64,000 bases of DNA from Alphaproteobacteria bacterium (GTDB taxonomy: Bacteria; Pseudomonadota; Alphaproteobacteria; UBA2136; JAPPOO01), in the NCBI GenBank assembly GCA_028817875.1, contig JAPPOO010000076.1:12041-76040 (forward strand). Reading direction: 5' to 3'. The translations under genes and the position numbers were made by a program. The notes beneath the pieces are model-generated. The model made no database searches, had not been told where the DNA came from, and saw only the letters and a program-made list of their open reading frames with translations. Positions 27,200 to 56,096 of the stretch are shown here, piece by piece; position 1 is the first letter of the stretch; each line of letters opens with the position of its first letter.

Positions 27200-27232
27200 T
27201 CAGCCTCTTATTATTGTTTTTACGATAAAAAT

Positions 27233-30130: not shown

Positions 30131-30191
30131 GGCGGTACTCTTTCTTTTATTTATCCCTAATCTGCTGATTTCTTATAGATTCAGCCATGAA

Positions 30192-31541
30192 TTAAAACCT
30201 TTTTGTTAATGACATGGACCACCGCTCATTCTCATAAGCGTAGTTTTGAATGTTAGATGTCGTCTCTTTATAGGTGTATCCACCACTGATAGTAATAGTC
30301 GGCGTTAGCGGTTTGCTAAGGTTAAGAGACAAGCTGAGTGAATTATCATCACGTGTCTTTGTCGGGTTAACGGAAGCATCAGGTGCGCGGTACTTTGTAT
30401 GCGTCAACGTCAACCCACCAACAGCACTCAAATTATACCAAGGTAATTGATGCAAAGTTTTAAAGTCCAGCGCATCGGAAACATAACTGTAATACTGGGC
30501 AGTCGTTTGTTCGTGATGGTTCGTGTAACCAAGGGTAAATGTGGTTTTAGGGGAATAAGCAAAAGTCGCATTAGTCTTAAATTCCCAAGCTTCACCATTA
30601 CGGAGCGTATAAAGGCTGCTACTGGCACTATTGTGGTGGCGTTTTAAATCATGAGAACCTGTAAATTGCAACTGCAGTTTAGGGTGCATAGCGTACGTCC
30701 ATTGTGCTTGCTTACGCCATGTTTGTTGGTAATCTGCTCGCGCAAGGTTTGTATCCGTGTACTGGACGGAGACGCCGAGACGAGAGCGCCATGTGGGAAT
30801 CACCCACACAGAGCCTGTTTTAATAGATTTAAGCGTGACATCCAAATTGGAAAGAAGGGATTGTTTTGTACGGTAGTAAAGGCCTTCTGTTTGCCATGTG
30901 TGGCCGCGTGGGTCACTAAAACGGTAGCTATGCCGTAACGCCAAAGCTTCAAAAACATGCTGATCCTCAGTTTTACTGCCACTTGCGGTAATAGGAAAGC
31001 TTACACCGCCGGAATCTTGATTTCCTGATGCAGGGGAGGCATTTCCGTTACTATCCTCATTCCAACCAAAGGTAAGGCTGCCACTGAAAAAATGGCGCTG
31101 TTTACGCGTACCAATTTCAGCCAGCATTTTTTGGATGTTATCCTGCACGGCTTCTGGCGGGTTAATAGCCAAAACTTCTCGCAAAAGCTTTTCTGAATCA
31201 GTGAAATTATTGATTTTCATGTAGATGAGAGCCATGTCCAGCTTAACACGGTGGAGGTCTGGCCGAGAAATCAACATCCGCTCGTAAGAGGCTAAAGCCT
31301 CATCATACTTCCCTAATTGGCCAGCAAGTTGCGCGTAAGCAAAGTTAGCATCAAGGCTTTCAGGGTTTTCTTTGATTTTTTGAAACAAAACTTCCAGCTT
31401 GGCCAGTTGTTGCTCTCTATTATCAGTAGGTTTTTTAGGTGCCTCAACAGGTACTGGTACAGTTTTACTAACAGCCGCTTCCTGTGCCTGAGCAGCACAA
31501 GCCAAACTTACAGATAGGCAAAGGAAGGCGACTTGTTTCAA
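30192..31541 (-). CDS. outer-membrane protein with periplasmic TPR domain and C-terminal beta-barrel; Slam (DUF560)-like architecture, 449 aa
   Basis: Signal peptide (…CAAQAQ), TPR-like helices (…YAQLAGQLGKYDEALASYERMLISRPD…), C-terminal alternating-hydrophobic beta strands ending in a terminal aromatic (…SLTKRF). Confidence 0.5.
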   Translation of the reverse strand: MKQVAFLCLSVSLACAAQAQEAAVSKTVPVPVEAPKKPTDNREQQLAKLEVLFQKIKENPESLDANFAYAQLAGQLGKYDEALASYERMLISRPDLHRVKLDMALIYMKINNFTDSEKLLREVLAINPPEAVQDNIQKMLAEIGTRKQRHFFSGSLTFGWNEDSNGNASPASGNQDSGGVSFPITASGSKTEDQHVFEALALRHSYRFSDPRGHTWQTEGLYYRTKQSLLSNLDVTLKSIKTGSVWVIPTWRSRLGVSVQYTDTNLARADYQQTWRKQAQWTYAMHPKLQLQFTGSHDLKRHHNSASSSLYTLRNGEAWEFKTNATFAYSPKTTFTLGYTNHHEQTTAQYYSYVSDALDFKTLHQLPWYNLSAVGGLTLTHTKYRAPDASVNPTKTRDDNSLSLSLNLSKPLTPTITISGGYTYKETTSNIQNYAYENERWSMSLTKRF

Positions 31542-45020: not shown

Positions 45021-48000
45021 ATGAAAAAAATAATAAGTTTCTTAGCGTTGTTCCTATCAGTAGGTGCCTTAAAAGCGCATGCGGTGGAATTCGGTGATAT
45101 CGCAACAACCAGCGTAACGGTAGATAACCGTGTGTGTGTTTACAATATAGATGGCGATACGGATGAAAGCATAGATTGTGGTACCGCCGCCCCTTACGTT
45201 GATAGCAGCGGTAACGTAGGTATTGGTACCGCAAGCCCACAAACAGTGTTAGAAGTAGCGGGTACAATCTCCGCTACAGGCGCGGAAATATCTGGAACCG
45301 TTTCTGCAACAGCGTTTTCAGGTGATGGTAGCCTTTTAACCAACTTACCCGTCAGTAGTATTGACCAAATTGTAAGCGGTACAACCAGCGTTGTAGCAAG
45401 CGAAAATACAAGTTTAACTTTCACGACTGCTGGTACAGAGCACATGGTTGTGAGTAGCGGTGGTGATGTTGGTATTGGTACGTCATTACCAGCGCAAAAA
45501 TTACATATTGTTGATAGCAGTGCAAATGGTACAGCCGGTTATTTTCAACAAACTAACACAACAAATAGTAACGGTATTGTTATCACAACGGCTACTAGTA
45601 ATACGGCTGATATAGTTTTTGGAGCCTACTCCGATAGTAATGCGAGGTTAGTTGTTAGGGGCGATGGAAATGTTGGTATGGGGACAAGCACGCCTGCTAA
45701 CAGTTTGACAGTCGTAGGAGACATAAGTGCGACGGCATATTATGGAGATGGTTCTGCCCTAACCAATGTAGCCATAGTTAGCTTAACAAACATCACAGAT
45801 GTAAGCGCAACAGCACCAACAAATGGGCAAGTATTAGTTTGGGATGACACCACCAAACTTTGGGAGCCAAGCACAACATCATCCGGCAGTAGCGGCGGTA
45901 TAGATGACCTAACGGATGCCGCACACAACACAACAGATTTTAATATGTTTTTAGGCCATGAAGGTAGCGGAGCAATCACTTCTAGCAGTGATTACAACCT
46001 AGGTATTGGTTTAACAGCATTAGATGCGTTGACATCTTCAGCAATTGGTAACATCGGTATAGGGTACGATGCTCTAACGGCAGTTACGAGTGGTGATGAT
46101 AATATCGCCATGGGCTATAATGCGTTAACTGCCATTACAACTAATAGCTATAACATAGCATTAGGGACATCAGCTTTGGAATCATCTACAGCGAGCAATA
46201 ATATAGCTGTAGGCCATAGTGCACTTATCTCAAATACAAGCGGCCAATACAATGTGGCTATGGGGAACGATGTACTCTACAATAATACTACCTCTAGCTA
46301 TAATGTAGCTATGGGTGATGATGCACTCTACAACAATGCAGGCAATTACAATACAGCTATCGGGCATAGCTCTTTAGAAAATAATACAACCGGTGCAAAC
46401 AATGTTGCTATCGGGGCAAATTCTTTATTTGGTGATGCTGCTGGTTCAACAGGTGCTGGTAATGCTGTTGTTGGGTATGGTGCCTTATACTCCAACACAA
46501 CCGGTAATTACAATACAGCCATAGGGTTCAGTAACTTATACAGAAATACAACTGGTGATTATAACATCAGCGCAGGGTATAACGCACTTTATGGAAGTGC
46601 CACGTCGGTTATATCGGGAAATGATAACATAGCGATAGGTAAGTTTGCTATGCGCTATGCTGCAAGTAGTTTTGATAATATTGCAATAGGTGATAGCGCT
46701 TTATATGACAGTTTAGACAACGATAATAACATTGCTATTGGAGCAGCCTCAATGCGTTACAATGCCCATGGTGTGCATAATGTTGCCGTAGGTGCAAACA
46801 CAATGGATGCTAACGGTATGAATGGTGATTTCAATACCGCTTTAGGGAACTCTGCAATGAGTGGAGCCGTAACAGGTGATTATAATATAGCTTTAGGACC
46901 AAACACTCTAACCGGAGCTGTATCGGGGGGATACAATATTGCACTAGGTATGCAAGCCTTAACAGGGAACTTGACTGGAAGTAATAATACGGGCATGGGG
47001 TACAGAGCACTTTATAACAACCAGAATGGAAGCAATAATATTGCTATAGGTTATTTTGCTGCATATGGAAATACATCAAATAAAGATATTACGGCAACAA
47101 TTGCTATAGGTTACCGTGCAGGGTACGCACTTCGGTCAGGTGCTGATTATAATACACTTATTGGTTATGACGCTGGAGATACCATTACAACAGGGGCTAA
47201 TAACATTATAATGGGTTATCGTGCGGGTGATAACCTAACTACAGGCTCCAGCAACATAATTATAGGTGATGATGTCAATGCGGTCTCTACAACAGCTGAT
47301 AACCAAATCAATATCGGAAATACAATTTACGGAAGCGCAGCGTCTGACTTTATCGGTATAGGTATAACAAGCCCTACAGTTGCGTTAGAAGTAAATGGTA
47401 CAGTTTCCGGAACAGCATTTATAGGGGATGGTTCTGGTTTGTACAATATCACTGTAGCTGTATCTAGTATCACAAATATTACCGATGTTAGCGCAACAAA
47501 CCCGACAGATGGACAGATTCTTGTTTGGAGTGACTCAACAAATTATTGGGAAGCAAGCAATATAGGCTCTATCACAATCAATTTAGATGAAGTATCAGAC
47601 GTTAGCGCAACAACACCGACAAGTAAGCAGGTTCTTGTCTGGAACAGTGTAGGAAGTTATTGGGAAGCGAGTGCTACATCATTAAGTGATTTAACTGATG
47701 CTCAGATAGGAACTATTAATGGTAGTAACAACAATTTTCTGTTAGGGCATGATGGTTCCTCAGCAGCTTTTGGCATATTTAATAGCTACAATATGGGGGT
47801 GGGAACTGATGCCTTAAACTCGCCTAATTTGCACAATGCAGGAGGGGCAAGTTATAACACGGCAGTTGGTTACGCAACAATGATAAGCGCAAGCAGAGCA
47901 GAGCGTGGCGTAGCTCTTGGTCACCAATCTTTACATCACTTAGAAGAAGGTGATGATAATACAGCTATAGGTTATAGAGCTTTGTACGAAAATACAGATG

Positions 48001-49775
48001 GAGAAGACAACACAGCAGTTGGTGCTTCAGCACTTCTTGACAATATAACTGGTATAGCTAACACAGCCGTTGGTTATATAGCACTTTCAAATAATACAAC
48101 CGGTGCTAATAATACGGCAATTGGTTCCACTGTATTGGATGCAAATACGGTTGGTGATTATAATACAGCACTGGGTATGCATGCTCTTGGTGCAAGTACT
48201 GTAGGTGATTATAATACAGCCTCTGGTTATCAAGCTCTTTACTATAATAATTCAGGAAGCTACAACACAGCTTACGGTGCCCTTGCAGCTTACGGGACAA
48301 ACACCCACAGCGTAACGGGTACCGTTGCAGTAGGGTACCGCGCAGGGTATGCACTGCGGTCAGGCGGAGATTATAACACACTGTTAGGTTATGAAGCTGG
48401 AGATACAATTACCACAGGAGCCAATAATATTGCCATCGGTTATGGATCAGGAGATACAATCACCACAGGAAGTACCAACGTAACGATAGGTTATCAAGCT
48501 GGTGATAACATCACGACAGGTTCCAGCAACATAATTATAGGTGATGATGTCAACGCGGTCTCTACAACAGCTGATAACCAAATCAACATCGGAAACACGA
48601 TTTACGGAAGTACAGCGTCTGACTTTATCGGTATAGGTATAACAAGCCCTACGGTTGCGTTAGAGATAAATGGTACGGTCTCCGCAACAGCATTTATAGG
48701 GGATGGTTCTGGCCTATATAATATTACTGGTATCAGCGTCGCTAGCTTAACAAATATCTCAGATGTCAGCGCGACAGAACCAGCGGATGCACAAGCGTTA
48801 GCATGGAACAATACAACAAATTACTGGGAACCTATGGGGGCAGCCTCACTCTCAATTGCTCTTGATGACCTGACCGATGCAGCAGTTATATCCAGCAATA
48901 TAATGATAGGGCACGAAGGGGCAACGCTAAATGCATCAACAACCGCAAATTTAGGAATTGGTGCAATTGCTCTAGACGCTTTAACAACAGGGGAGTGGAA
49001 TGTAGCTGTTGGTCGTGTAGCACTAACTGATAACACAACAGGTAGCGGTAACGTGGCAGTTGGGCAAGCATTATCAAACAATACGACAGGGCAGAACAAT
49101 GTTGGTATTGGCGGTCTACTCAACCTTCACCAAAACACAACAGGGACTAGTAATGTCTCCATAGGTGACCGCACAATGTATGAAAATATATCTGGAAATG
49201 AAAATGTTGCAATTGGTGGTTATGCATTATACGACATAGTAGCTGGAGAGGAAAATGTTGCTATAGGGCATAGTGCTATGAATGGTGCAACTGGCTTTAG
49301 TGTAACAGGTACAGTCGCTATCGGTGCTTGGGCTGGAGTTAATTTAGATACAGGGGCAGACTATAACACAATAGTAGGGAATTGGGCTGGAAGTGGACTA
49401 ACAACAGGGTCAAATAATGTACTATTAGGCCGCTCTGCTGGAAATAACGTAACAACAGGTACAGGTAACGTACTATTAGGCCGCTCCGCTGGAAGTACGC
49501 TCACTACAGGATCAGACAATATTATTATTGGTAATCTTGTGGCAGCAGTTTCCGCCACAGCTGATGATCAACTGAACATTGGAAATACAATTTACGGTGA
49601 CCTAAGTACAGGTGAGGTTGGTATTGGCACCAGCGTAACGAGTGCAACCTTAGATGTGAGCGGAACCATTAAAGTCGCTGGCACAGGCTCAGAAACCTGC
49701 TCCGCATCATCCGATGCTGGAAAAATCAGGTTAGATCCTGCCACAGGTAAAGTTCAAATCTGTTTCACACCTTAA
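45021..49775 (+). CDS. giant secreted repeat protein (1584 aa) with Hep_Hag-like 14-residue repeats and tail-fibre-like GIGT motifs
   Basis: Signal peptide MKKIISFLALFLSVGALKAHA; dozens of NTAIGxxALxxNTTGxxN units; recurring …(N/D)VGIGTxxPxxxLxVxG…F.GDGS.LTN modules; no YadA-type membrane anchor; protein ends …KVQICFTP. Confidence 0.7.
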   Translation: MKKIISFLALFLSVGALKAHAVEFGDIATTSVTVDNRVCVYNIDGDTDESIDCGTAAPYVDSSGNVGIGTASPQTVLEVAGTISATGAEISGTVSATAFSGDGSLLTNLPVSSIDQIVSGTTSVVASENTSLTFTTAGTEHMVVSSGGDVGIGTSLPAQKLHIVDSSANGTAGYFQQTNTTNSNGIVITTATSNTADIVFGAYSDSNARLVVRGDGNVGMGTSTPANSLTVVGDISATAYYGDGSALTNVAIVSLTNITDVSATAPTNGQVLVWDDTTKLWEPSTTSSGSSGGIDDLTDAAHNTTDFNMFLGHEGSGAITSSSDYNLGIGLTALDALTSSAIGNIGIGYDALTAVTSGDDNIAMGYNALTAITTNSYNIALGTSALESSTASNNIAVGHSALISNTSGQYNVAMGNDVLYNNTTSSYNVAMGDDALYNNAGNYNTAIGHSSLENNTTGANNVAIGANSLFGDAAGSTGAGNAVVGYGALYSNTTGNYNTAIGFSNLYRNTTGDYNISAGYNALYGSATSVISGNDNIAIGKFAMRYAASSFDNIAIGDSALYDSLDNDNNIAIGAASMRYNAHGVHNVAVGANTMDANGMNGDFNTALGNSAMSGAVTGDYNIALGPNTLTGAVSGGYNIALGMQALTGNLTGSNNTGMGYRALYNNQNGSNNIAIGYFAAYGNTSNKDITATIAIGYRAGYALRSGADYNTLIGYDAGDTITTGANNIIMGYRAGDNLTTGSSNIIIGDDVNAVSTTADNQINIGNTIYGSAASDFIGIGITSPTVALEVNGTVSGTAFIGDGSGLYNITVAVSSITNITDVSATNPTDGQILVWSDSTNYWEASNIGSITINLDEVSDVSATTPTSKQVLVWNSVGSYWEASATSLSDLTDAQIGTINGSNNNFLLGHDGSSAAFGIFNSYNMGVGTDALNSPNLHNAGGASYNTAVGYATMISASRAERGVALGHQSLHHLEEGDDNTAIGYRALYENTDGEDNTAVGASALLDNITGIANTAVGYIALSNNTTGANNTAIGSTVLDANTVGDYNTALGMHALGASTVGDYNTASGYQALYYNNSGSYNTAYGALAAYGTNTHSVTGTVAVGYRAGYALRSGGDYNTLLGYEAGDTITTGANNIAIGYGSGDTITTGSTNVTIGYQAGDNITTGSSNIIIGDDVNAVSTTADNQINIGNTIYGSTASDFIGIGITSPTVALEINGTVSATAFIGDGSGLYNITGISVASLTNISDVSATEPADAQALAWNNTTNYWEPMGAASLSIALDDLTDAAVISSNIMIGHEGATLNASTTANLGIGAIALDALTTGEWNVAVGRVALTDNTTGSGNVAVGQALSNNTTGQNNVGIGGLLNLHQNTTGTSNVSIGDRTMYENISGNENVAIGGYALYDIVAGEENVAIGHSAMNGATGFSVTGTVAIGAWAGVNLDTGADYNTIVGNWAGSGLTTGSNNVLLGRSAGNNVTTGTGNVLLGRSAGSTLTTGSDNIIIGNLVAAVSATADDQLNIGNTIYGDLSTGEVGIGTSVTSATLDVSGTIKVAGTGSETCSASSDAGKIRLDPATGKVQICFTP
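47240..47455. repeat. intragenic long direct repeat copy 1 (about 215 nt, nearly identical to 48515..48745; lower similarity extends to about 47101)
   Basis: ggctccagcaacataattataggtgatgatgtcaatgcggtctctacaacagctgataaccaaatcaatatcggaaatacaatttacggaag… is repeated with a handful of mismatches. Confidence 0.85.
48515..48745. repeat. intragenic long direct repeat copy 2
   Basis: See copy 1; the encoded peptides are nearly identical (…SSNIIIGDDVNAVSTTADNQINIGNTIYGS…DFIGIGITSPTVALE(V/I)NGTVS…). Confidence 0.85.
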
Positions 49776-49793
49776 TGTAAATAAAAACGTGAA

Positions 49794-49818
49794 AGCCCCT
49801 GCTACAGGGGCTTTTTTA
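49794..49818 (+). terminator. rho-independent terminator (agcccctgctacaggggct + TTTTTT)
   Basis: Hairpin plus T-tract 18 nt after the stop of the giant gene. Confidence 0.7.
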
Positions 49819-49911
49819 TATATCCACCCCTTAAGCAATGCTTATATTGTATACATTTGGCATGGTCTATGCACAAATTATTGGCAGAGAGACCAATAGA
49901 GGGAATTGAAA

Positions 49912-50592
49912 ATGAATACACAACGAACTATACTCACAAACGAACCGATCTTAAGTGGGCAGCTAAAGTACAGAACAGATGTACCAGGTGCAAAGCAGAG
50001 AAAGGCCTTAGAGAAAAGAGGAATTGGCGTGATGGGATTAGCATTAGACGAAATGATTTTAACAGGAGCTATGGTAGGCAGCGCAGGGTTATTTGCTGCT
50101 GTGTCTGTGCCATGGGATAGTGTTCTAATGCCGGAAAAAGCACGCATTATGGATGAACTAACAGCGATAGAGGAAGCAAATAGCAACTTCCACTTACGTT
50201 ATAAAAAATGGCCGCATGAAATGACAGACGGCTCTGGCGCACACAATGCTGCTGCCCTTGTAACTACAAGAGCTATGCGCTTTCCGTACAGTAATATGAG
50301 TCAATTTAAAGCCCCATTGAAAGATGTGCCATTTGATATGAAAGGTAAACGTATTAGCCTACGTCACGGTTATGGTAGTGGTGGCCGCATTTTACAACAA
50401 CCGTCTGATAACCCAGCCTATAGAATGAAAGTAACATTTGAAAATATGCCGCTTTCCAAAGTACGGGAAATGGATATTGTGATTGACCAAGAAAGCAACT
50501 TAGATAGAGGTCGCTTGCAAGTGGATGTCCGTAACGGACGTGTAGATATGGTTTTCTACGCAAATTCAACACTCACAGCAAGCCGTTACTAA
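49912..50592 (+). CDS. hypothetical protein (226 aa) with possible prepilin-like N-terminus
   Basis: ATG with a purine-rich RBS (the track ORF begins at a TTG 6 nt upstream); …KRGIGVMG|LALDEMILTGAMVGSAGLFAAVSV resembles G/xxxxE plus a hydrophobic helix of type IV pilin-like proteins; its own promoter-like region follows the upstream terminator. Confidence 0.4.
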   Translation: MNTQRTILTNEPILSGQLKYRTDVPGAKQRKALEKRGIGVMGLALDEMILTGAMVGSAGLFAAVSVPWDSVLMPEKARIMDELTAIEEANSNFHLRYKKWPHEMTDGSGAHNAAALVTTRAMRFPYSNMSQFKAPLKDVPFDMKGKRISLRHGYGSGGRILQQPSDNPAYRMKVTFENMPLSKVREMDIVIDQESNLDRGRLQVDVRNGRVDMVFYANSTLTASRY

Positions 50593-51305
50593 ACAGCTGC
50601 TAAACCATCCTTAAGTGAAACCCCTTCGTACAGAATTTTATGGCGAAGGGGTTTTTTATATGTAGGAACATGCAGGTTGTCCCCACGCTGCCCTATATGA
50701 AAAATAACACGCTTGGCCAGTCGCTCAGGGTGCGAAACCAAGTAAACACAGTGAAAAGGCACACCAATATCTCTTGCCCATCTTTTAACAATATCAGCCT
50801 CAGCAGTATGTAACAAAATATGTAAAGAGGATGCACTATGTCGCCACAAGGCATCCAACCAAGATGTCAAAACACCTGTAGGCATACAATAAGCCTCATT
50901 TTTACGTGCATCTATGCTGGTAAAGCCTCGTCTACGAGCATGGAAAGGCAGGTTAGCAACAACACAATCAAATGGTTTGATAAAAGGAGAGGCCGTAAAT
51001 TCGGCCTGTTGTGTTATATAAGTAAAATCATTTAACGCAGCGTTCTTTTGAGCTTGCTGTAAAACTTGAGCATTACAATCCATACCTGTAAGCATGAGGT
51101 GAGGAGAGCGGGTAAGTAAGCTAAAACCAATGATGCCACAGCCGCAGCCAGCATCTAAAACAGTTTTATAAGATTGAGTGCAAACACTTGCCGCAAGCCA
51201 TAAAGACTCTTCACTAGGGTTTAAATGACCTCTCAAAAGGGATATTTGTCCGCCCAGTACCGTGAAAGTAGGTGATAGACTAGTTTTCGGGGCTACTATC
51301 ATCAA
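50589..51305 (-). CDS. class I SAM-dependent methyltransferase, RsmC/RlmG-like small-domain type (238 aa)
   Basis: SAM motif I LDAGCGCGIIG and substrate motif VANLPFH (NPPF-like), as in rRNA m2G/N6 methyltransferases. Confidence 0.65.
   Translation of the reverse strand: MMIVAPKTSLSPTFTVLGGQISLLRGHLNPSEESLWLAASVCTQSYKTVLDAGCGCGIIGFSLLTRSPHLMLTGMDCNAQVLQQAQKNAALNDFTYITQQAEFTASPFIKPFDCVVANLPFHARRRGFTSIDARKNEAYCMPTGVLTSWLDALWRHSASSLHILLHTAEADIVKRWARDIGVPFHCVYLVSHPERLAKRVIFHIGQRGDNLHVPTYKKPLRHKILYEGVSLKDGLAAV
50618..50658. terminator. bidirectional terminator hairpin (aaccccttcg…cgaaggggtt + T-tract)
   Basis: Lies between convergent genes 49912..50592 (+) and 50589..51305 (-). Confidence 0.55.
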
Positions 51306-54300
51306 GTGGTGGCTCTAATATAGAGTCTTCTTGTTCTGCCTCACTTGGGTTGTCAGATACCTGACCATCTGTAGACAAAGTTGCAGCAGGGGGTTCTTTT
51401 TTCTCAACTTTAGTTGGTGGCGTAGCTGCTTCACGTTCTTGCTGTTTACGGGCATTTTCCTCTAAAAGGTTAATAAGAACATTAAGCTTACTGCCGCTAT
51501 TAACACGAGATTCTTTCGTTTGAGTACCAGCGACTAAATGGGCATATTTAGCACGCATATTATGTTGATTGTGGGTACCACATAAAAGCTTATGAGAAAG
51601 AATATGGCAGCGTGCTAAAGCCGTAATATAGCCAGAGTCCCCAGGGAGCGGATACTTAAGAACTAAGTTGGTTGTATGAAGGTCAGGGTTGTAAAAACCT
51701 TCAATAGGTTGTGGCTTATCTGGCTGAGCAGGGTGGTGTAAAAAACCGGAAACAGGGTAAACAACACTCAAATTACGGTTATTCTTTTTAGGCTGTAAAG
51801 GACTTTGTATAGCTGTTTCCAGTTCCAAAATACTACCAATAGGTAAAATATACTCACTACCAGTGGAAGGTGTTGTTAACTCTTTTTGAATAGAAAAGCG
51901 TCCATCGGGAATTTGTGGGTAATTCGGTTTAACGGCAACACGACGAAATAAAGCAGTTTTACCGCTTTCAAATGTTACATTTAGTTTAGGCGCTTCACCA
52001 TCCTCAGAAATAAGCTGAAGATCCTCAATATTACCGTATATATCAGAGAAAGGTAGAGGTAAAGCTGCCTCAATAGCGTAGTCGTAAGATGGTGCAATAG
52101 CTAGCGTATTAAAGTTAAGAGTACCATAAATATTCGTACGGAACGTTTTACCATAATGCGTGGAAAGCTGATCTGATCGGGTAATAGGTGTACTGCCAAC
52201 ACGGTTAATAAATGTAAGCTCTGTACGCGTTAGTGTGCTGCCCATACCACTGCCAGACATATTGTAAGGATTAACAAGAATAGCTGCGAGTGTTGAGTGC
52301 TCATTCAACAAATCCTCCGGCACATAAACACCTCTAAACTGTTGAAGTGTTTTAACGTAGTGGCTGATGTAAGGCTTAGCTTGGTTAAGGTAGTAGACTG
52401 AGCTGATTTGAGCAAAGCTTTCAGCTGCTAAGGAAAATTGATCCGCATCAAAAGCATCGATACCTGTCATAAGAGCCTTAAATTCAGGGCGGACAGCCTG
52501 AAACGCCGCCTTCAGGTCTTCTGGTGCATCCAACCAAACAGCGCGACTATCTTCCAAATTATCTAAACGATTTAAAATTTCACTCACAATAAAATCAAGT
52601 CGTAAATCAGAGTGGCGTCGATGAAGATCATACCCATACAACGTCATATCCAAGGCAGTTAGCTTTTCATCACGGCTAAGACTATTTCTCAATGTGCTGA
52701 GTAGGTACACATCCTTTTCATCTTTAGGGAAAGCCTTTTCATCAAACAAATGATATAAACGGTACAAAGCGTTAGGCGTGCCGTACTGGCCGGGGGCATT
52801 TAGCACCAAACTTTTTAGAATATTGTCGATAGTATCGGCAGAGTCAGAAAAAAACGTACGCAGAAAAGAAAATTTAGGTCCTAAGTCTAAAGCAACTTCT
52901 TGCTGTTCTTGAATCAAAGACTCTGGTGTTTCAGCGCGTAATGTTTCAAGAATCTGCTGCTTTTTAAGATAAGCATCAAAATCTTTAAGCAAAATGGCGC
53001 CAAGGTTAAAGTCAATTTCCATTTCATCGTTTAAAAAGCTGCCAAGGTGCGTTACTTCATCAAAGTCATCAGTATTAAAGGCTTGGCTTAAACTACGAAT
53101 AATAACAGGAACAATGGCCTGCCGTTTTTCACGAGCTACTTCAGGGCTAAAGCGAGAGTATGCAAGAACGTTAACCAAGTTTTTATTTTCTAGTGCGTGC
53201 ATAAGGCTGTTTTGCACCATTTTTTCCAATTTTACACGGGTTGGCTTGTCATCATCATGGATAACAACTTGTTCTAATAACGGTAAAATATTTGCACCTG
53301 TTGTGCTTAATGTTTCTAAAGTACTAAGCAAACGTGCATTATAAAATTTAATAAGGGAAGGTGGAATCTGGTCTGTCTTAAGAGGAGGGCCAAGTAGGTC
53401 AACGTCGCCTGTTGCCGTCATATAAGCTTCTGCTGCCTTTAGAAAACGTCGCCACACATCTTCTTGGTTAGGGTCAAGAATAAGCTGTAACCGCTGTAAA
53501 TAAAGGTTTAAACTTTGGCGAGGGGTTATTAATGTAGCTTCATCAGTATCAGAAACATTTGGGGTATTAAGTGGTTGAACAACTTGTGTTGTACTTGTCT
53601 TCTTTGAAGTATGTGGCTTTTCTAAACCAGTATTACGCTCCTGTAGAGAAGCTGTTCGAGCAAAAGCATCATTTCTAAAAGCAGGTTGTTCCAATAAGTA
53701 AGCAAGTGTTTTGGCAATATGCTTTCGAGCAGAAGAAGTAAGAACAGTATCCCATTGAAGGTCATCTAAAAATTGAGGAAATTCCGTAACAAATAAAGTC
53801 GTTGCATCATCAGGGCTTTGCTTTGTGTAATAAAGATAGGCCGCAGGTACCAAAGCCCCAAAAACACCAGGCGAAAGTACCTGAGTATCTTGTTTGCTGC
53901 GGATTGCAATCGTATGGTTTTTCAAAAGCGGTTTATTGTCAGTAGAAAGGCCAAGCAATACACTCAAATAGTGTTGTGCTGGTTTTGGTAATGTTTGTTG
54001 AGCCGCTAAGTTTTGCAAACTGCTAACAGTTGCTTCTGTATCGCCCAATACCAAAGCACGGCCAAAATAGTCAAACAAGGCCTGAGTATAGGCTTGTTGA
54101 ATAAAGCTTCCTTCAAATAAAGAAATCATTTTCAGCAACGGAGCAGGTTGTTCCGGCAAGTTAGCGACAACACGAGCTTGGTTTCTAAGGTAAGCATCAA
54201 TATCTAGTTTTTGATCTCCCTGAATACTTACGGCTTCTTGCGGTAAATACGGCAAACTAGCGCGAATGGCATCCAATACACCCGTATTTTGAGTAAAACA

Positions 54301-54522
54301 GTTTTCTTCAATACATTGGGCAAGGCGTGCTTGTGTAGCCAAAGCATGTAAAGTTGCATCTTCAGGAGCCTTCAAAAGCTGACTATCTAAGTTTTTTAAA
54401 GCGGAGTCATAATCCTTCGCTGCAATGCTGGTAGCAATGTCATTAACGGTTTCTTCGCCGCATCCGGCTAAAATAAAAGGGGCACACAGCAGGAACAGGC
54501 GGGTCGGGTACGTTATCTTCAT
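51280..54522 (-). CDS. large lipoprotein of unknown function (about 1080 aa) with Glu/Pro-rich C-terminus
   Basis: Start moved to the internal ATG giving lipoprotein signal MKITYPTRLFLLCAPFILAGC; overlaps the downstream methyltransferase gene by 26 nt; no family recognised. Confidence 0.5.
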   Translation of the reverse strand: MKITYPTRLFLLCAPFILAGCGEETVNDIATSIAAKDYDSALKNLDSQLLKAPEDATLHALATQARLAQCIEENCFTQNTGVLDAIRASLPYLPQEAVSIQGDQKLDIDAYLRNQARVVANLPEQPAPLLKMISLFEGSFIQQAYTQALFDYFGRALVLGDTEATVSSLQNLAAQQTLPKPAQHYLSVLLGLSTDNKPLLKNHTIAIRSKQDTQVLSPGVFGALVPAAYLYYTKQSPDDATTLFVTEFPQFLDDLQWDTVLTSSARKHIAKTLAYLLEQPAFRNDAFARTASLQERNTGLEKPHTSKKTSTTQVVQPLNTPNVSDTDEATLITPRQSLNLYLQRLQLILDPNQEDVWRRFLKAAEAYMTATGDVDLLGPPLKTDQIPPSLIKFYNARLLSTLETLSTTGANILPLLEQVVIHDDDKPTRVKLEKMVQNSLMHALENKNLVNVLAYSRFSPEVAREKRQAIVPVIIRSLSQAFNTDDFDEVTHLGSFLNDEMEIDFNLGAILLKDFDAYLKKQQILETLRAETPESLIQEQQEVALDLGPKFSFLRTFFSDSADTIDNILKSLVLNAPGQYGTPNALYRLYHLFDEKAFPKDEKDVYLLSTLRNSLSRDEKLTALDMTLYGYDLHRRHSDLRLDFIVSEILNRLDNLEDSRAVWLDAPEDLKAAFQAVRPEFKALMTGIDAFDADQFSLAAESFAQISSVYYLNQAKPYISHYVKTLQQFRGVYVPEDLLNEHSTLAAILVNPYNMSGSGMGSTLTRTELTFINRVGSTPITRSDQLSTHYGKTFRTNIYGTLNFNTLAIAPSYDYAIEAALPLPFSDIYGNIEDLQLISEDGEAPKLNVTFESGKTALFRRVAVKPNYPQIPDGRFSIQKELTTPSTGSEYILPIGSILELETAIQSPLQPKKNNRNLSVVYPVSGFLHHPAQPDKPQPIEGFYNPDLHTTNLVLKYPLPGDSGYITALARCHILSHKLLCGTHNQHNMRAKYAHLVAGTQTKESRVNSGSKLNVLINLLEENARKQQEREAATPPTKVEKKEPPAATLSTDGQVSDNPSEAEQEDSILEPPLDDSSPEN

Positions 54523-54580
54523 AGCACTCAATTTAACATAGTATTGAAGGATAACAGGAACTGAGGCAGGATAGACCCCA

Positions 54581-55399
54581 ATGAAACGAATGATTTTAGG
54601 ACTAGCTGTTGCACTTGTGCTGTACGCACCAGGTGCTGCATGGGCATACAATTGGCAAACAGATGGAGAACGCCTGCACTACAAAGTAAGTTACGGTTTT
54701 TTAAACATAGGGGAGGCAGAGCTTCTCTACGAACCAAAAAATTTGGTGACTGCCCAAGAGGCAGGAGAGGGCTACCACGTTGTGGCACGCGCATGGACAG
54801 AAACTGCTTTGTTCAAACTGTTAGAACGCCTAAGCGTAACAGGTGGCCATACACCTGAAGGTAAGTTTCTACCTGCGGTGTATCAACAAATGCAGATAGA
54901 AAACGACTTCAAGGCAAATAAAGAAGTAACGTTTAACCACGTAACCAACACGGCAAGCTATAAAAACCACCAAAACGCCATACCAGCAGAAGAGTTTAAC
55001 GTACTGCCTCAAGCGCGAGATATGATTTCCGCTCTGTACTACCTGCGTTATCATGTTGAAGACGTTGACGGACAAATCCAAGACCTGCCTGTTGTCAGTC
55101 TACATCGCAAATACACAATGAAAATCAAAATTGGCGAAACAAAAAGTATTAAAAATAGAGACGGCAAAAAAATCTTTCTCAGGGAGATAAAGCCGCTACT
55201 CATAACACAAGATGAAGAAGCAAAAATAAAAGATAGCTGGCGTATTTGGATTACAGCAGACGAACGCCGCTTACCTGTAAAAATAGAACTAAAATCAAAG
55301 TTTGGAACATTCCGCGCGAACTTACAGCAAGCGGCAGCAGCAAATAGCCCATCTCATGCGCCGGATAAACTGCCTGTAACAGGAAATTTCATTCAATAG
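54581..55399 (+). CDS. secreted protein, DUF3108-like (272 aa)
   Basis: Signal peptide MKRMILGLAVALVLYAPGAAWA, then an …YKVSYGFLNIGEAEL… pattern reminiscent of DUF3108; tentative. Confidence 0.4.
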   Translation: MKRMILGLAVALVLYAPGAAWAYNWQTDGERLHYKVSYGFLNIGEAELLYEPKNLVTAQEAGEGYHVVARAWTETALFKLLERLSVTGGHTPEGKFLPAVYQQMQIENDFKANKEVTFNHVTNTASYKNHQNAIPAEEFNVLPQARDMISALYYLRYHVEDVDGQIQDLPVVSLHRKYTMKIKIGETKSIKNRDGKKIFLREIKPLLITQDEEAKIKDSWRIWITADERRLPVKIELKSKFGTFRANLQQAAAANSPSHAPDKLPVTGNFIQ

Positions 55400-55403
55400 C
55401 CCC

Positions 55404-56096
55404 ATGATTATAAAACGTATTGTTGACCACTGGACAGAGCAGTGTCCGAAGGATTCTTTAGCTCAGGCACAGCCCAACTACCTAGAAATAGCTACGGCTA
55501 TTAAGGCTATGCCGACAAGTAATGCACCCACATTTATTCATATGATGGGAGTACCTGGCAGCGGCAAAACAACAATAGCGGAAGCCCTATACGCTGAACT
55601 AACCTCAACTGAAAGTTGGATGTGGCACGGCTTTGATGGTGTTATGCAAAAGCTCCGGCCATATCAGGAAGACCTGACAACGAATACAGAAGAAGCTTTC
55701 AACAAATGGGAGCTTCCAGCGCGTATTTGTGGATATAAATTATTGGAAGAAGCCGTCGCAAAAAACGTGAACATTCTATTTGACCACGGTGGTGCTGACT
55801 CAAATCACCCAGAGCTACTGTCGTGGGTGAAAAAGCAAGGGTACACAGTCTTTATGGTGAAGGCAGATATTCCCCAAAAGCTTGCGGAAGAACGTGTTCA
55901 AGCGCGTTCAGCCCAACCAAACACACGGTTTACACCCATCAAATACGTTGGTGAACGTTGTCGCGTGCTAAAAGACTTGGAACCAAAATACGCTGAAATT
56001 GTTGATAAACTATATAAAGTCGACAACTCAGGCTCTCCTGAAAACCTAAGTGAAGTACAAAAAATACTCGCAGAAATAGAAAAATCCAAATGTTAA
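55404..56096 (+). CDS. P-loop kinase, zeta-toxin/AAA_33-like (230 aa)
   Basis: Walker A MMGVPGSGKTTIAEAL; starts 4 nt after the upstream gene and overlaps the downstream start (ATGTTAA). Confidence 0.5.
   Translation: MIIKRIVDHWTEQCPKDSLAQAQPNYLEIATAIKAMPTSNAPTFIHMMGVPGSGKTTIAEALYAELTSTESWMWHGFDGVMQKLRPYQEDLTTNTEEAFNKWELPARICGYKLLEEAVAKNVNILFDHGGADSNHPELLSWVKKQGYTVFMVKADIPQKLAEERVQARSAQPNTRFTPIKYVGERCRVLKDLEPKYAEIVDKLYKVDNSGSPENLSEVQKILAEIEKSKC

What the first reader, a model, noticed from the sequence alone, without database searches (positions are those of the whole stretch)
45021..49775. 1584-aa secreted protein built from Hep_Hag-like 14-mer repeats and tail-fibre-like GIGT modules without a YadA anchor
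After a signal peptide the protein consists of recurring …VGIGTxxPxxxLxVxG…(F/Y)xGDGSxLTN… modules, a pattern common in tail-fibre-domain proteins. These are interleaved with about 60 copies of a 14-residue NTA(I/V)GxxALxxNTTG unit resembling trimeric-autotransporter head (Hep_Hag) repeats. It nevertheless lacks a C-terminal beta-barrel anchor and ends with a Cys-containing …ETCSASSDAGKIRLDPATGKVQICFTP module. The gene sits alone: no phage genes and no autotransporter or TpsB partner are nearby. A distinct secretion route is therefore possible, perhaps involving the downstream pilin-like protein, or use as a fibre-like adhesin.
Basis: seen in the sequence. Interest (0 to 1): 0.6.

Follow-up and report, generated by a model that had tools for sequence, protein, structure and literature searches.

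The report
Phage-fibre-like secreted surface fibre protein
This gene encodes a long secreted fibre protein, built from parts also seen in phage tail fibres and bacterial adhesin heads, and it resembles the surface fibres recently described in the predator Bdellovibrio; it is probably an ordinary member of that large group, apart from two conserved, undescribed end-pieces.

Summary
One thing is wrong: the repeat period is 17 residues, not 14 (lag-17 identity z = 22; lag-14 z = -2.3).

There is no YadA anchor, S74 chaperone or TPS domain. No phage or secretion-partner gene lies in the window, and a terminator follows the stop codon. The downstream "pilin-like" ORF has no family support and is not conserved next to homologs.

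The cap occurs in 428 protein-cluster representatives, usually together with the same N-head. All those looked up in public sources are unnamed.

Best reading: a MAT-like surface fibre or adhesin without S74, in an uncultured alphaproteobacterium. How it crosses the outer membrane is unknown. I class it as a new member of a known kind, of modest interest.

The parts
45021..49775 (+). Fibre gene, 1584 aa, apparently monocistronic
   Evidence: ORF listing. The identical gene is present in NCBI MAG GCA_028817995.1 and in ENA metagenome scaffolds.
45021..45083 (+). Sec-type signal peptide (aa 1-21, MKKIISFLALFLSVGALKAHA)
   Evidence: By inspection, plus hydropathy 2.11. Equivalent signal peptides precede the N-head in more than 50 relatives.
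45084..45206 (+). N-head (aa 22-62): FGDIATTSVTV..RVC...SIDC..APYV, a conserved Cys-loop module directly after the signal-peptide cleavage site
   Evidence: The regex/alignment of relatives has two invariant Cys. AF2 places the two Cys at the base of a beta-hairpin, with block-mean pLDDT of 74-93 for model residues 11-60. No Pfam model covers it.
45207..45785 (+). Three capping-loop modules (aa 63-255; VGIGT/VGMGT motifs at 66, 150 and 218; GDGS motifs at 99 and 240). They are MAT-type beta-helix segments.
   Evidence: phmmer gives PDB 8OND (Bd2133) at E = 5e-6, aligned to aa 135-255. The motif equals the MAT capping-loop consensus.
45786..45896 (+). 'DVSAT..P..GQvLvW......WEPS' knob 1 and a Ser/Gly linker (aa 256-292)
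   Evidence: The motif recurs at aa 258, 820, ~858 and ~1246 (D5/D6).
45897..47345 (+). Hinge 'IDDLTDA' plus 17-residue repeat block 1 (aa 293-775, about 26 units). Consensus (D/S)(Y/N)N(I/T/V)A(I/L)GxxALxxNTTG.
   Evidence: Periodicity. tblastn to tail-fibre genes in 81 phage records at 31-39% identity.
47346..47684 (+). Capping loop 4 (IGIGITSPTVAL), FIGDGSGLYN and two knobs (aa 776-888)
47685..48620 (+). Hinge 'LSDLTDA' plus 17-residue repeat block 2 (aa 889-1200, about 16 units)
   Evidence: The 300-nt stretch 48424-48723 is 85% identical to 47149-47448, which indicates an internal duplication.
48621..48845 (+). Capping loop 5, FIGDGSGLYN and a knob (aa 1201-1275)
48846..49610 (+). Hinge 'LDDLTDA' plus 17-residue repeat block 3 (aa 1276-1530, about 13 units)
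49611..49772 (+). Capping loop 6 (VGIGTSVTSATL) plus the C-terminal Cys cap LDVSGTIKVAGTGSETC...GKIRLDPATGKVQIC-FTP (aa 1531-1584)
   Evidence: A profile of the cap finds 428 cluster representatives at E <= 1e-3 among 1.84 billion. Of the 145 listed hits examined, 95 carry it at the extreme C-terminus. C, G and C are invariant.
49791..49822 (+). Intrinsic-terminator-like hairpin (11 bp, 6 GC) followed by a T-run, 16 nt after the stop codon

Best explanation
The gene encodes a Sec-exported, probably homotrimeric, modular surface fibre (putative adhesin). It belongs to the same kind as the 'mosaic adhesive trimer' (MAT) fibres of Bdellovibrio and the many bacterial 'tail fiber domain-containing proteins'.

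Proposed mechanism, with each step marked as shown or inferred:
1. The signal peptide directs Sec export to the periplasm (inferred from sequence).
2. Two disulfides form there, C39-C53 in the N-head and C1560-C1581 in the C-terminal cap, each stapling a beta-hairpin (inferred from the invariant Cys pairs and the AF2 strand pattern).
3. Three chains assemble into a fibre. Segments delimited by capping loops form MAT/phage-type beta-helix. They alternate with three long YadA-head-like left-handed beta-roll blocks with one 17-residue turn per repeat. Fold similarity rests on a moderate-confidence model. Trimerisation is inferred from solved relatives.
4. There is no S74 chaperone, so the small conserved C-terminal cap may act as the C-terminal folding or registration element and as the distal end (speculative).
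5. The conserved N-head probably sits next to the cell surface as the retention element, as proposed for the MAT N-terminal domain (inferred by analogy).
6. The fibre would be roughly 50 nm long. It is displayed outside the outer membrane by a route not encoded next to the gene, and still unknown for MATs too.

In this uncultured, possibly sponge-associated alphaproteobacterium the likely role is attachment to host matrix, particles or other cells.
For: - The ORF, the motifs and the 17-residue periodicity are far beyond chance.
- The only PDB sequence relatives are the Bdellovibrio MAT fibres 8OND (Bd2133; E = 5e-6 for the single sequence, 5e-4 for the profile) and 8OJN/8ONB/8ONC.
- The GIGT motif equals the structurally defined MAT/S74 capping-loop consensus V-G-G/N-pi-x-x-P-x-x-x-L. 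MAT proteins were shown experimentally to be signal-peptide-bearing, trimeric and surface-displayed, and they come in S74 and non-S74 forms (PMC10769870).
- There are 3058 homologs at E <= 1e-5. Many are 2000-2700 aa, end in PF13884, and are named 'tail fiber domain-containing protein' or 'trimeric autotransporter adhesin'.
- A relative, P0141, passes the Pfam thresholds for both YadA_head and Peptidase_S74.
- The C-cap occurs in 428 cluster representatives. It co-occurs with the signal peptide and N-head in 48 full-length proteins of 300-4400 aa.
- The context is chromosomal housekeeping genes, a terminator follows the gene, and no neighbour is conserved across 8 loci.
Against: - There is no experimental data for this protein or its subfamily.
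- Trimerisation, the disulfides and surface display are all inferred.
- The AF2 models are monomeric and only moderately confident: mean pLDDT 67 and 66, with pTM 0.65 and 0.39.
- Foldseek against the PDB gave nothing significant (best E about 0.7).
- Pfam and NCBIfam do not recognise any domain in the query.
- Homology of the N-head to the conserved ~130-aa MAT N-terminal domain could not be tested. Bdellovibrio MAT sequences were not retrievable and afdb50 was unavailable.
- No export or anchoring machinery was identified.
- The host is not known to be a predator, so the function may differ from that of MATs.
Confidence: 0.6

Rival explanations
1. It is a tail fibre or tailspike of a phage, gene transfer agent or tailocin, encoded away from the structural cluster. 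It would be assembled in the cytoplasm onto a particle.
For: - PHROG hits are strong: tail spike phrog_4636 at 8e-103, and virion structural protein families.
- 81 phage records carry the same repeat block in genes annotated as tail fibres, at 31-39% identity.
- There are 66 viral structure matches.
- Most homologs end in the phage-type S74 chaperone.
- Alphaproteobacterial GTAs are known to encode fibres at remote loci (established knowledge, not tested here).
Against: - A canonical Sec signal peptide is conserved across the subfamily. This is incompatible with cytoplasmic virion assembly.
- Paired Cys suggest folding in the periplasm or outside the cell.
- No phage or GTA gene occurs in 64 kb.
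- The gene has its own terminator.
- GC content is like the surrounding DNA.
- Homolog contexts are varied and show no structural modules.
Confidence: 0.07
2. It is a trimeric autotransporter adhesin (type Vc) whose beta-barrel anchor is missing, split off or encoded elsewhere.
For: - The predicted fold of the repeat blocks is closest to TAA heads.
- JGI names several homologs 'trimeric autotransporter adhesin'.
- Some relatives hit PF05658.
Against: - There is no YadA_anchor or any other Pfam hit.
- The protein ends 54 aa after the last repeat, in a cap that is the conserved true C-terminus of hundreds of proteins.
- Neither model contains coiled-coil stalk helices.
- No anchor-like gene lies nearby, and a terminator follows the stop codon.
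Confidence: 0.03
3. It is a released, non-anchored secreted fibre or matrix protein, exported by a general system such as T2SS. It would act in the extracellular matrix or biofilm rather than as a cell-attached adhesin.
For: - It has a signal peptide and disulfide-type Cys pairs, as is typical of periplasm-folded T2SS substrates (inference).
- No anchor motif is present: no lipobox, sortase signal, PEP-CTERM or beta-barrel.
- No dedicated partner gene was found.
Against: - The N-head lies directly after the cleavage site and is strongly conserved across proteins with very different shafts. That pattern suggests a common docking or retention function.
- MAT relatives are retained on the cell surface.
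- No T2SS genes lie in the window, though 64 kb is only part of the genome.
Confidence: 0.15
4. The fibre is exported or displayed through a pilus-like system that involves the downstream 'pilin-like' ORF (49912-50592).
For: - The downstream ORF contains 'KRGIGVMG|LALDEMILTGAMVGSAGLFAAV', which by eye resembles a prepilin leader with Glu at +5.
- Some distant cap-module proteins have pilin-like N-terminal hydrophobic segments.
Against: - Neither library gives any hit for the ORF, with Pfam run at E <= 5 and NCBIfam at E <= 1.
- A terminator and about 135 nt separate the two genes.
- The ORF downstream of homolog P0049 is unrelated (BLASTP E = 25).
- No neighbour of the window gene is shared with 7 other loci.
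- No pilus assembly genes lie in the window.
Confidence: 0.03

Closest known systems
Bdellovibrio bacteriovorus MAT (mosaic adhesive trimer) fibres, non-S74 subgroup, e.g. Bd2133 (PDB 8OND); Caulton et al. 2024, PMC10769870
   Same: - N-terminal signal peptide.
- Long modular fibre with repeated capping-loop motifs (V-G-I/G/N-x-x-x-P-x-x-x-L) on beta-helix segments. Direct sequence match to aa 135-255, E = 5e-6.
- No beta-barrel anchor.
- No S74 in this subgroup.
- Chromosomal, stand-alone genes.
- Chimeric character: part phage fibre, part adhesin.
- Export and anchoring route unknown.
   Different: - The host is an uncultured alphaproteobacterium, not a known predator.
- Most of the length is 17-residue YadA-head-like beta-roll, which is not prominent in the solved MAT tips.
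- It ends in a ~45-aa Cys-stapled cap rather than a globular tip (beta-sandwich, TNF-like or C-type lectin).
- The N-terminal module is a short Cys-loop head whose relation to the ~130-aa MAT N-domain could not be tested.
Trimeric autotransporter adhesin heads (YadA 1P9H, EibD 2XQH, BpaC 7O23, BoaA 3S6L, UspA1 3NTN); Pfam YadA_head/Hep_Hag PF05658
   Same: - The N-x-A-I/V-G core motif.
- Predicted left-handed parallel beta-roll with one turn per repeat.
   Different: - The repeat is 17 residues, not 14.
- No PF05658 hit for the query.
- No coiled-coil stalk and no YadA anchor, so it is not type Vc secretion.
Phage tail fibres and tailspikes with YadA-like repeats plus the S74 intramolecular chaperone (e.g. 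Pelagibacter phage HTVC111P tail fibre, Roseobacter phage CRP-1, cyanophage P-SSM2 proximal tail fibre; PHROG 4636 and 6002; PF13884)
   Same: - The same 17-residue repeat blocks (31-39% identity over ~450 aa).
- The same hinge, capping-loop and GDGS motifs.
- Modular shuffling of these parts.
   Different: - The query has a Sec signal peptide, the N-head and the Cys cap.
- It lacks the S74 chaperone.
- It sits among housekeeping genes with no phage genes nearby.
Bacterial 'tail fiber domain-containing proteins' (e.g. Limnobacter spp., 2263-2613 aa, PF13884 at the C-terminus)
   Same: - Overall repeat architecture, with 28-32% identity over up to 74% of the query.
- Chromosomal genes.
   Different: - They end in S74 rather than the Cys cap.
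- Only a few S74-ended proteins (P0001, P0017, P0099) share the N-head.

Membership tests
MAT (mosaic adhesive trimer) fibre superfamily (PMC10769870) | N-terminal signal peptide | tested here: met
   MKKIISFLALFLSVGALKAHA|VEF has a basic n-region, a hydrophobic core (KD 2.11) and an AxA-type site. Equivalent signal peptides occur in more than 50 relatives. This rests on inspection only; no predictor was available.
MAT (mosaic adhesive trimer) fibre superfamily (PMC10769870) | Conserved ~130-aa beta-rich N-terminal domain immediately after the signal peptide | not testable with these tools
   No full-length Bdellovibrio MAT sequence could be retrieved, afdb50 was unavailable, and the PDB holds no N-domain. 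The query does have a different-looking conserved N-head (aa 22-62), shared with at least 55 proteins.
MAT (mosaic adhesive trimer) fibre superfamily (PMC10769870) | Capping-loop motif V-G-G/N-pi-x-x-P-x-x-x-L on beta-helix segments | tested here: met
   Six copies, against 0.011 expected. The motif aligns to the Bd2133 and 8OJN chains and matches the alignment in Supplementary Fig. 18.
MAT (mosaic adhesive trimer) fibre superfamily (PMC10769870) | Intertwined homotrimer; surface display | not testable with these tools
   Only monomer AF2 was available, and there is no experimental data.
MAT (mosaic adhesive trimer) fibre superfamily (PMC10769870) | C-terminus is either the S74 chaperone/protease (SDxxxK) or an alternative non-S74 tip | tested here: met
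   There is no PF13884 hit, so the query is of the non-S74 type. Its C-terminus is a conserved Cys cap, which is not among the tips described in the paper.
Trimeric autotransporter adhesin (type Vc) | C-terminal YadA-type beta-barrel anchor | tested here: not met
   No Pfam hit at E <= 1. The protein ends in a 54-aa capping-loop plus Cys cap.
Trimeric autotransporter adhesin (type Vc) | YadA_head / Hep_Hag repeats (PF05658, 14-residue period) | tested here: inconclusive
Trimeric autotransporter adhesin (type Vc) | Coiled-coil stalk | tested here: not met
   DSSP on both AF2 models shows no helix of 4 or more residues. The models cover aa 22-235 and 1276-1584 only.
Phage tail fibre / tailspike with S74 intramolecular chaperone | Peptidase_S74 (PF13884) C-terminal domain | tested here: not met
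   By contrast, most homologs have it.
Phage tail fibre / tailspike with S74 intramolecular chaperone | Encoded in a phage or prophage structural module; no signal peptide | tested here: not met
   The whole window is cellular housekeeping genes, and a signal peptide is present.
Phage tail fibre / tailspike with S74 intramolecular chaperone | Shared shaft repeats | tested here: met
   PHROG 4636, 6002 and 23837 at E of 1e-86 to 1e-103. 81 phage records. 66 BFVD matches.
Two-partner secretion exoprotein (TpsA) | N-terminal TPS domain and an adjacent TpsB transporter | tested here: not met
   No Pfam hit in the query, and no POTRA/ShlB-type gene among the neighbours.
Type IV pilin / pseudopilin (for the downstream ORF 49912-50592) | Prepilin N-terminal methylation motif recognised by profile models | tested here: not met
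   No hit for this ORF in either library, with Pfam run at E <= 5 and NCBIfam at E <= 1.

The most novel reading that the evidence does not exclude
The pairing of a signal peptide and Cys-loop N-head with a Cys-stapled C-terminal cap occurs in hundreds of unnamed proteobacterial proteins of 300-4400 aa. It may mark a distinct, undescribed class of surface fibres. In this reading the conserved ends are the recognition elements of a dedicated, not yet identified outer-membrane export and anchoring pathway: the N-head as docking module, and the cap as an S74-independent trimerisation nucleus. That pathway would be separate from type V secretion and from phage assembly.
Probability: 0.15. Interest if true: 0.65.

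Novelty: new member of a known kind. Interest (0 to 1): 0.3.

Why it matters
These chimeric fibres combine phage-fibre parts with adhesin-head parts. They are very common in environmental and symbiotic bacteria, yet they have been characterised only in Bdellovibrio.

This example shows that the architecture exists in an uncultured alphaproteobacterium, possibly from a sponge metagenome. There it could mediate attachment to host matrix or to other cells.

The practical outcome is a sequence signature: signal peptide, then [WF]G[DE]xAx[IV]SxT...RxC...DIxC, then a shaft, then ...AGTGSExC...GxxRxNPxTGxxQxC at the C-terminus. It defines a large subfamily with no curated annotation and gives a handle on the open question of how anchorless trimeric fibres cross and stay on the outer membrane. 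The gene itself is not exceptional.

Tried and rejected
- Pfam and NCBIfam on the query gave nothing useful. The only hits were spurious sub-threshold GroES matches.
- afdb50 was not available. The planned fold comparison of the N-head with the Bdellovibrio MAT N-domains could not be run.
- A homolog search with the Bd2133 fragment recovered returned only small proteins carrying capping loops. It returned no full-length MATs.
- The N-head profile search through the word-indexed database returned only 3 fragments and was uninformative.
A narrow 4-sequence alignment worked but returned only 7 loci, so the taxonomic picture (Alphaproteobacteria, Magnetococcales) is biased towards close relatives.
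- I looked for a conserved neighbour, as a possible export partner, across the window and 7 loci. None was found.
- The ORF downstream of the window gene and the ORF downstream of P0049 are unrelated.
- I tested whether the Cys cap is a variant of the internal 'DVSAT..GQxLxW..WE' knob. hhalign gave no support (probability 0.4%), but my regex caught only 3 knob sequences, so I dropped the idea.
- The cluster look-up did not find the fibre protein itself. The organism name came from neighbouring genes instead.
- The sample could not be confirmed as part of Robbins et al. 2021. The SAMN identifier is not in the main text.
Full report
OBSERVATION

The ORF is exactly as stated: 45021..49775 on the + strand, 1584 aa. 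An identical gene is on record in NCBI MAG GCA_028817995.1 (contig JAPPOK010000122.1) and in ENA metagenome scaffolds labelled ROBB21-1_SAMN1394322x. NCBI names the neighbouring pyruvate kinase and MutS as coming from an 'Alphaproteobacteria bacterium' MAG. The 'ROBB21' label suggests the sponge metagenomes of Robbins et al. 2021, but I could not verify this.

The composition is Gly/Ala/Thr/Asn/Ser-rich, and there are only four Cys, at positions 39, 53, 1560 and 1581. GC content is like that of the surrounding DNA.

ARCHITECTURE

- **Signal peptide.** Residues 1-21 (MKKIISFLALFLSVGALKAHA) look like a Sec signal peptide by inspection. Core hydropathy is 2.11.
- **GIGT motifs.** Six [VI]G[IM]G[TI]xx[PT]xxxL motifs occur at aa 66, 150, 218, 778, 1203 and 1533. 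Shuffles give a mean of 0.011.
- **GDGS motifs.** Four [FY]xGDGSxL motifs occur, against 0 in shuffles.
- **Repeats.**
  - Identity at lag 17 is 0.265 against 0.091 in shuffles (z = 22). Lag 34 gives z = 12.3 and lag 14 gives z = -2.3.
  - An HMM built from the repeats finds 48 near-full units and 61 hits in total. The modal spacing is exactly 17.
  - The consensus is (D/S)(Y/N)N(I/T/V)A(I/L)GxxALxxNTTG.
- **Super-modules.** After an N-terminal region of about 290 aa, the protein has three tandem super-modules.
  - Each one runs: an 'xDDLTDA' hinge, a 17-mer block, 'NIGNTIYG', a GIGT motif, a GDGS motif, and one or two 'DVSAT..GQxLxW..WE' knobs.
  - The last super-module replaces the GDGS motif and knobs with a Cys-containing tail.
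  - A 300-nt stretch is duplicated inside the gene at 85% identity, which shows recent module duplication.

WHAT THE PARTS ARE

Pfam finds nothing in the query at E <= 1: no YadA_head, YadA anchor, Peptidase_S74 or TPS domain. NCBIfam gives only spurious matches. PHROGs gives strong, repeat-driven hits to tail-spike and virion-structural families, with E from 1e-86 to 1e-103.

A homolog search finds 3058 proteins at E <= 1e-5. The best are only 30-42% identical. Most are 2000-2700 aa, end in PF13884 (the S74 intramolecular chaperone), and are named 'tail fiber domain-containing protein' (Limnobacter) or, by JGI, 'trimeric autotransporter adhesin'.

The only PDB sequence relatives are Bdellovibrio fibres:
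- 8OND 'bd2133', at E = 5e-6, aligned to aa 135-255.
- With a profile, 8OND again plus 8OJN/8ONB/8ONC.

Caulton et al. 2024 (PMC10769870) describe these as the MAT (mosaic adhesive trimer) superfamily. According to that paper, MATs:
- carry a signal peptide and a conserved N-terminal domain;
- form intertwined trimeric beta-helix fibres;
- end either in S74 or in diverse non-S74 tips;
- are displayed on the cell surface;
- have an unidentified retention element on the cell surface, and the paper names no export route.

Their 'capping loop' consensus, V-G-G/N-pi-x-x-P-x-x-x-L, is listed in Supplementary Fig. 18 with examples such as NVGIGATAPTAKLE.

THE 17-MER BLOCKS

The first block and its flanks (aa 294-827) match genes in 81 phage records at 31-39% identity, with up to 95% query coverage. 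The best matches are annotated as tail fibre, tail spike, tail structural protein or endo-N-acetylneuraminidase; a few are unannotated. They include Pelagibacter phages HTVC111P and HTVC112P, Roseobacter phages CRP-1/7/831, Methylophilales phage Venkman and cyanophage P-SSM2.

An AF2 model of aa 1276-1584 has mean pLDDT 67 and pTM 0.65. Block-mean pLDDT is 86-93 over model residues 171-240. It shows one short strand every ~17 residues.
- Foldseek against the PDB was not significant.
- Foldseek against viral predicted structures gives 66 hits at E <= 1e-3. The hits are labelled YadA-like head, LbR_YadA-like, S74 or tail fibre.
- A relative, P0141, passes the Pfam thresholds for both YadA_head and Peptidase_S74 in one chain.

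The same repeat type is common in phage fibres.

THE ENDS

The tail ...LDVSGTIKVAGTGSETCSASSDAGKIRLDPATGKVQICFTP recurs at the exact C-terminus of six homologs that lack S74.

A profile of this tail, searched exhaustively against 1.84 billion cluster representatives, finds 428 proteins at E <= 1e-3 and 89 at E <= 1e-10. Of the 145 listed hits I examined, 95 carry it at the extreme C-terminus. Those proteins range from about 280 to 4400 aa. C, G and C are invariant. Some giant proteins carry internal copies.

Many of the cap proteins also share an N-terminus. It consists of a signal peptide followed directly by [WF]G[DE]xAx[IV]SxT...RxC...DIxC(P)xxAPY. The query fits this pattern: FGDIATTSVTVDNRVCVYNIDGDTDESIDCGTAAPYV.
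- Head and cap co-occur in 48 full-length proteins.
- A few proteins with the head end in S74 instead.

AF2 puts the two N-head Cys at the base of a beta-hairpin, with block-mean pLDDT of 74-93 over model residues 11-60. The cap also contains a hairpin between its two Cys. Pfam covers neither end, and the ten members looked up in public sources are unnamed or 'hypothetical protein'.

A narrow pattern scan of reference genomes found 7 further loci. All are in Alphaproteobacteria or Magnetococcales MAGs: Phyllobacteriaceae, Filomicrobium, Rhodospirillales and others.

CONTEXT

The window is ordinary chromosome. It carries MutS, MurJ, an RND efflux pump, Mla, pyruvate kinase, CtpA, an M23 peptidase, RlmH, methyltransferases, DUF3108 and PHB genes. 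There are no phage, T1SS, T5SS or TpsB genes.

An 11-bp GC-rich hairpin with a T-run sits 16 nt after the stop codon.

The downstream ORF (49912-50592) looks prepilin-like by eye, but:
- it has no Pfam or NCBIfam support;
- it is unrelated to the ORF downstream of homolog P0049;
- no neighbour of the window gene is shared with the 7 other loci.

Homolog contexts vary:
- flagellar genes;
- plasmid-type RepA/ParA;
- an integrase;
- a second, S74-ended fibre gene in tandem.

None of these contexts shows a phage structural module.

INTERPRETATION

The best-supported reading is a Sec-exported, probably trimeric, MAT-like surface fibre or adhesin without S74. Export to the periplasm, disulfide formation, trimerisation, a cell-proximal N-head, a distal or folding-nucleus role for the cap, and surface display are all inferred by analogy. 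They are not shown.

I estimate the fibre at about 50 nm. The estimate assumes about 55 beta-roll turns at ~4.8 Å each, plus about 630 aa of beta-helix-type modules at the ~0.4 Å per residue seen in the Bd2133 tip.

The main rivals:
- **Phage, GTA or tailocin fibre.** The conserved signal peptide and the gene context argue against it.
- **Trimeric autotransporter.** There is no anchor and no stalk, and the C-terminus is a conserved true end.
- **Pilus-linked export through the downstream ORF.** There is no support for this.
- **Released rather than cell-attached fibre.** This cannot be excluded.

The outer-membrane route is unknown here, as it is for MATs.

NOVELTY

The building blocks and the overall kind are known and extremely common. 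What is not described, as far as I could find, is the conserved pair of N-head and C-cap that defines a large unnamed subfamily. I could not test whether the N-head corresponds to the MAT N-terminal domain.

I class the finding as a new member of a known kind, of modest interest. There is a minority chance, about 0.15, that the conserved ends mark a dedicated export and anchoring pathway.

Noticed in passing
window 25058-31541 (- strand): Three consecutive genes: a Slam-like protein (TPR_Slam + SlipAM, 449 aa, 30192-31541), a 965-aa FecR-domain protein (27233-30130) and a CHASE2 + guanylate/adenylate cyclase (713 aa, 25058-27199). This may be a surface-protein export and signalling cluster.
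   Followed up: no
window 51280-54651 (- strand): A 1080-1123-aa protein with no Pfam hit and a lipobox-like 'FILAGC' near the N-terminus. In one metagenome assembly (L002) the same region is called as two genes of 646 and 421 aa, which suggests a frameshift or strain variation.
   Followed up: no
window 49912-50592 (+ strand): A 226-aa ORF downstream of the fibre gene contains 'KRGIGVMG|LALDEMILTGAMVGSAGLFAAV', which looks prepilin-like by eye. No Pfam or NCBIfam model matches it, and it is not conserved next to homologs.
   Followed up: yes
proteins P0121, P0122, P0130, P0141, P0143, P0159, P0174, P0223: Giant proteins (up to 5767 aa) carry several internal copies of the Cys module. Their N-terminus is pilin-like or transmembrane ('SGNVFFTLFGAVALVGV') and, in most, the C-terminus is a hydrophobic segment plus a basic tail. 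P0141 has YadA_head and Peptidase_S74 before that tail. This is a differently anchored class of related fibres.
   Followed up: partly
L015:1580-15963 (Rhodospirillales MAG): Two fibre genes lie in tandem. The first is 2845 aa, with the Cys cap and a hydrophobic N-terminal segment instead of the N-head. The second is 1951 aa, with Peptidase_S74 and DUF2793.
   Followed up: partly
L010:5142-10126 and L014:7502-10108: In a Phyllobacteriaceae MAG the cap-bearing fibre gene sits beside RepA_C/ParA genes, which looks plasmid-like. In a Filomicrobium MAG it sits beside a phage-type integrase. Some family members may therefore be carried on mobile elements.
   Followed up: partly
L006 / L009 / L011 (Magnetococcales-like MAGs): In this lineage the fibre gene lies directly downstream of a flagellar block (fliF, fliG, fliH, fliN, motA and a sigma-54 activator). 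The arrangement is syntenic across three genomes.
   Followed up: no
window 47149-47448 and 48424-48723: A 300-nt direct repeat inside the fibre gene, 85% identical and spaced 1275 nt apart, indicates recent duplication of a whole super-module.
   Followed up: yes
window 55404-56096 (+ strand): A 230-aa Zeta_toxin/AAA_33 kinase-like protein lies between a DUF3108 protein and an HhH-GPD glycosylase. No adjacent antitoxin is evident.
   Followed up: no
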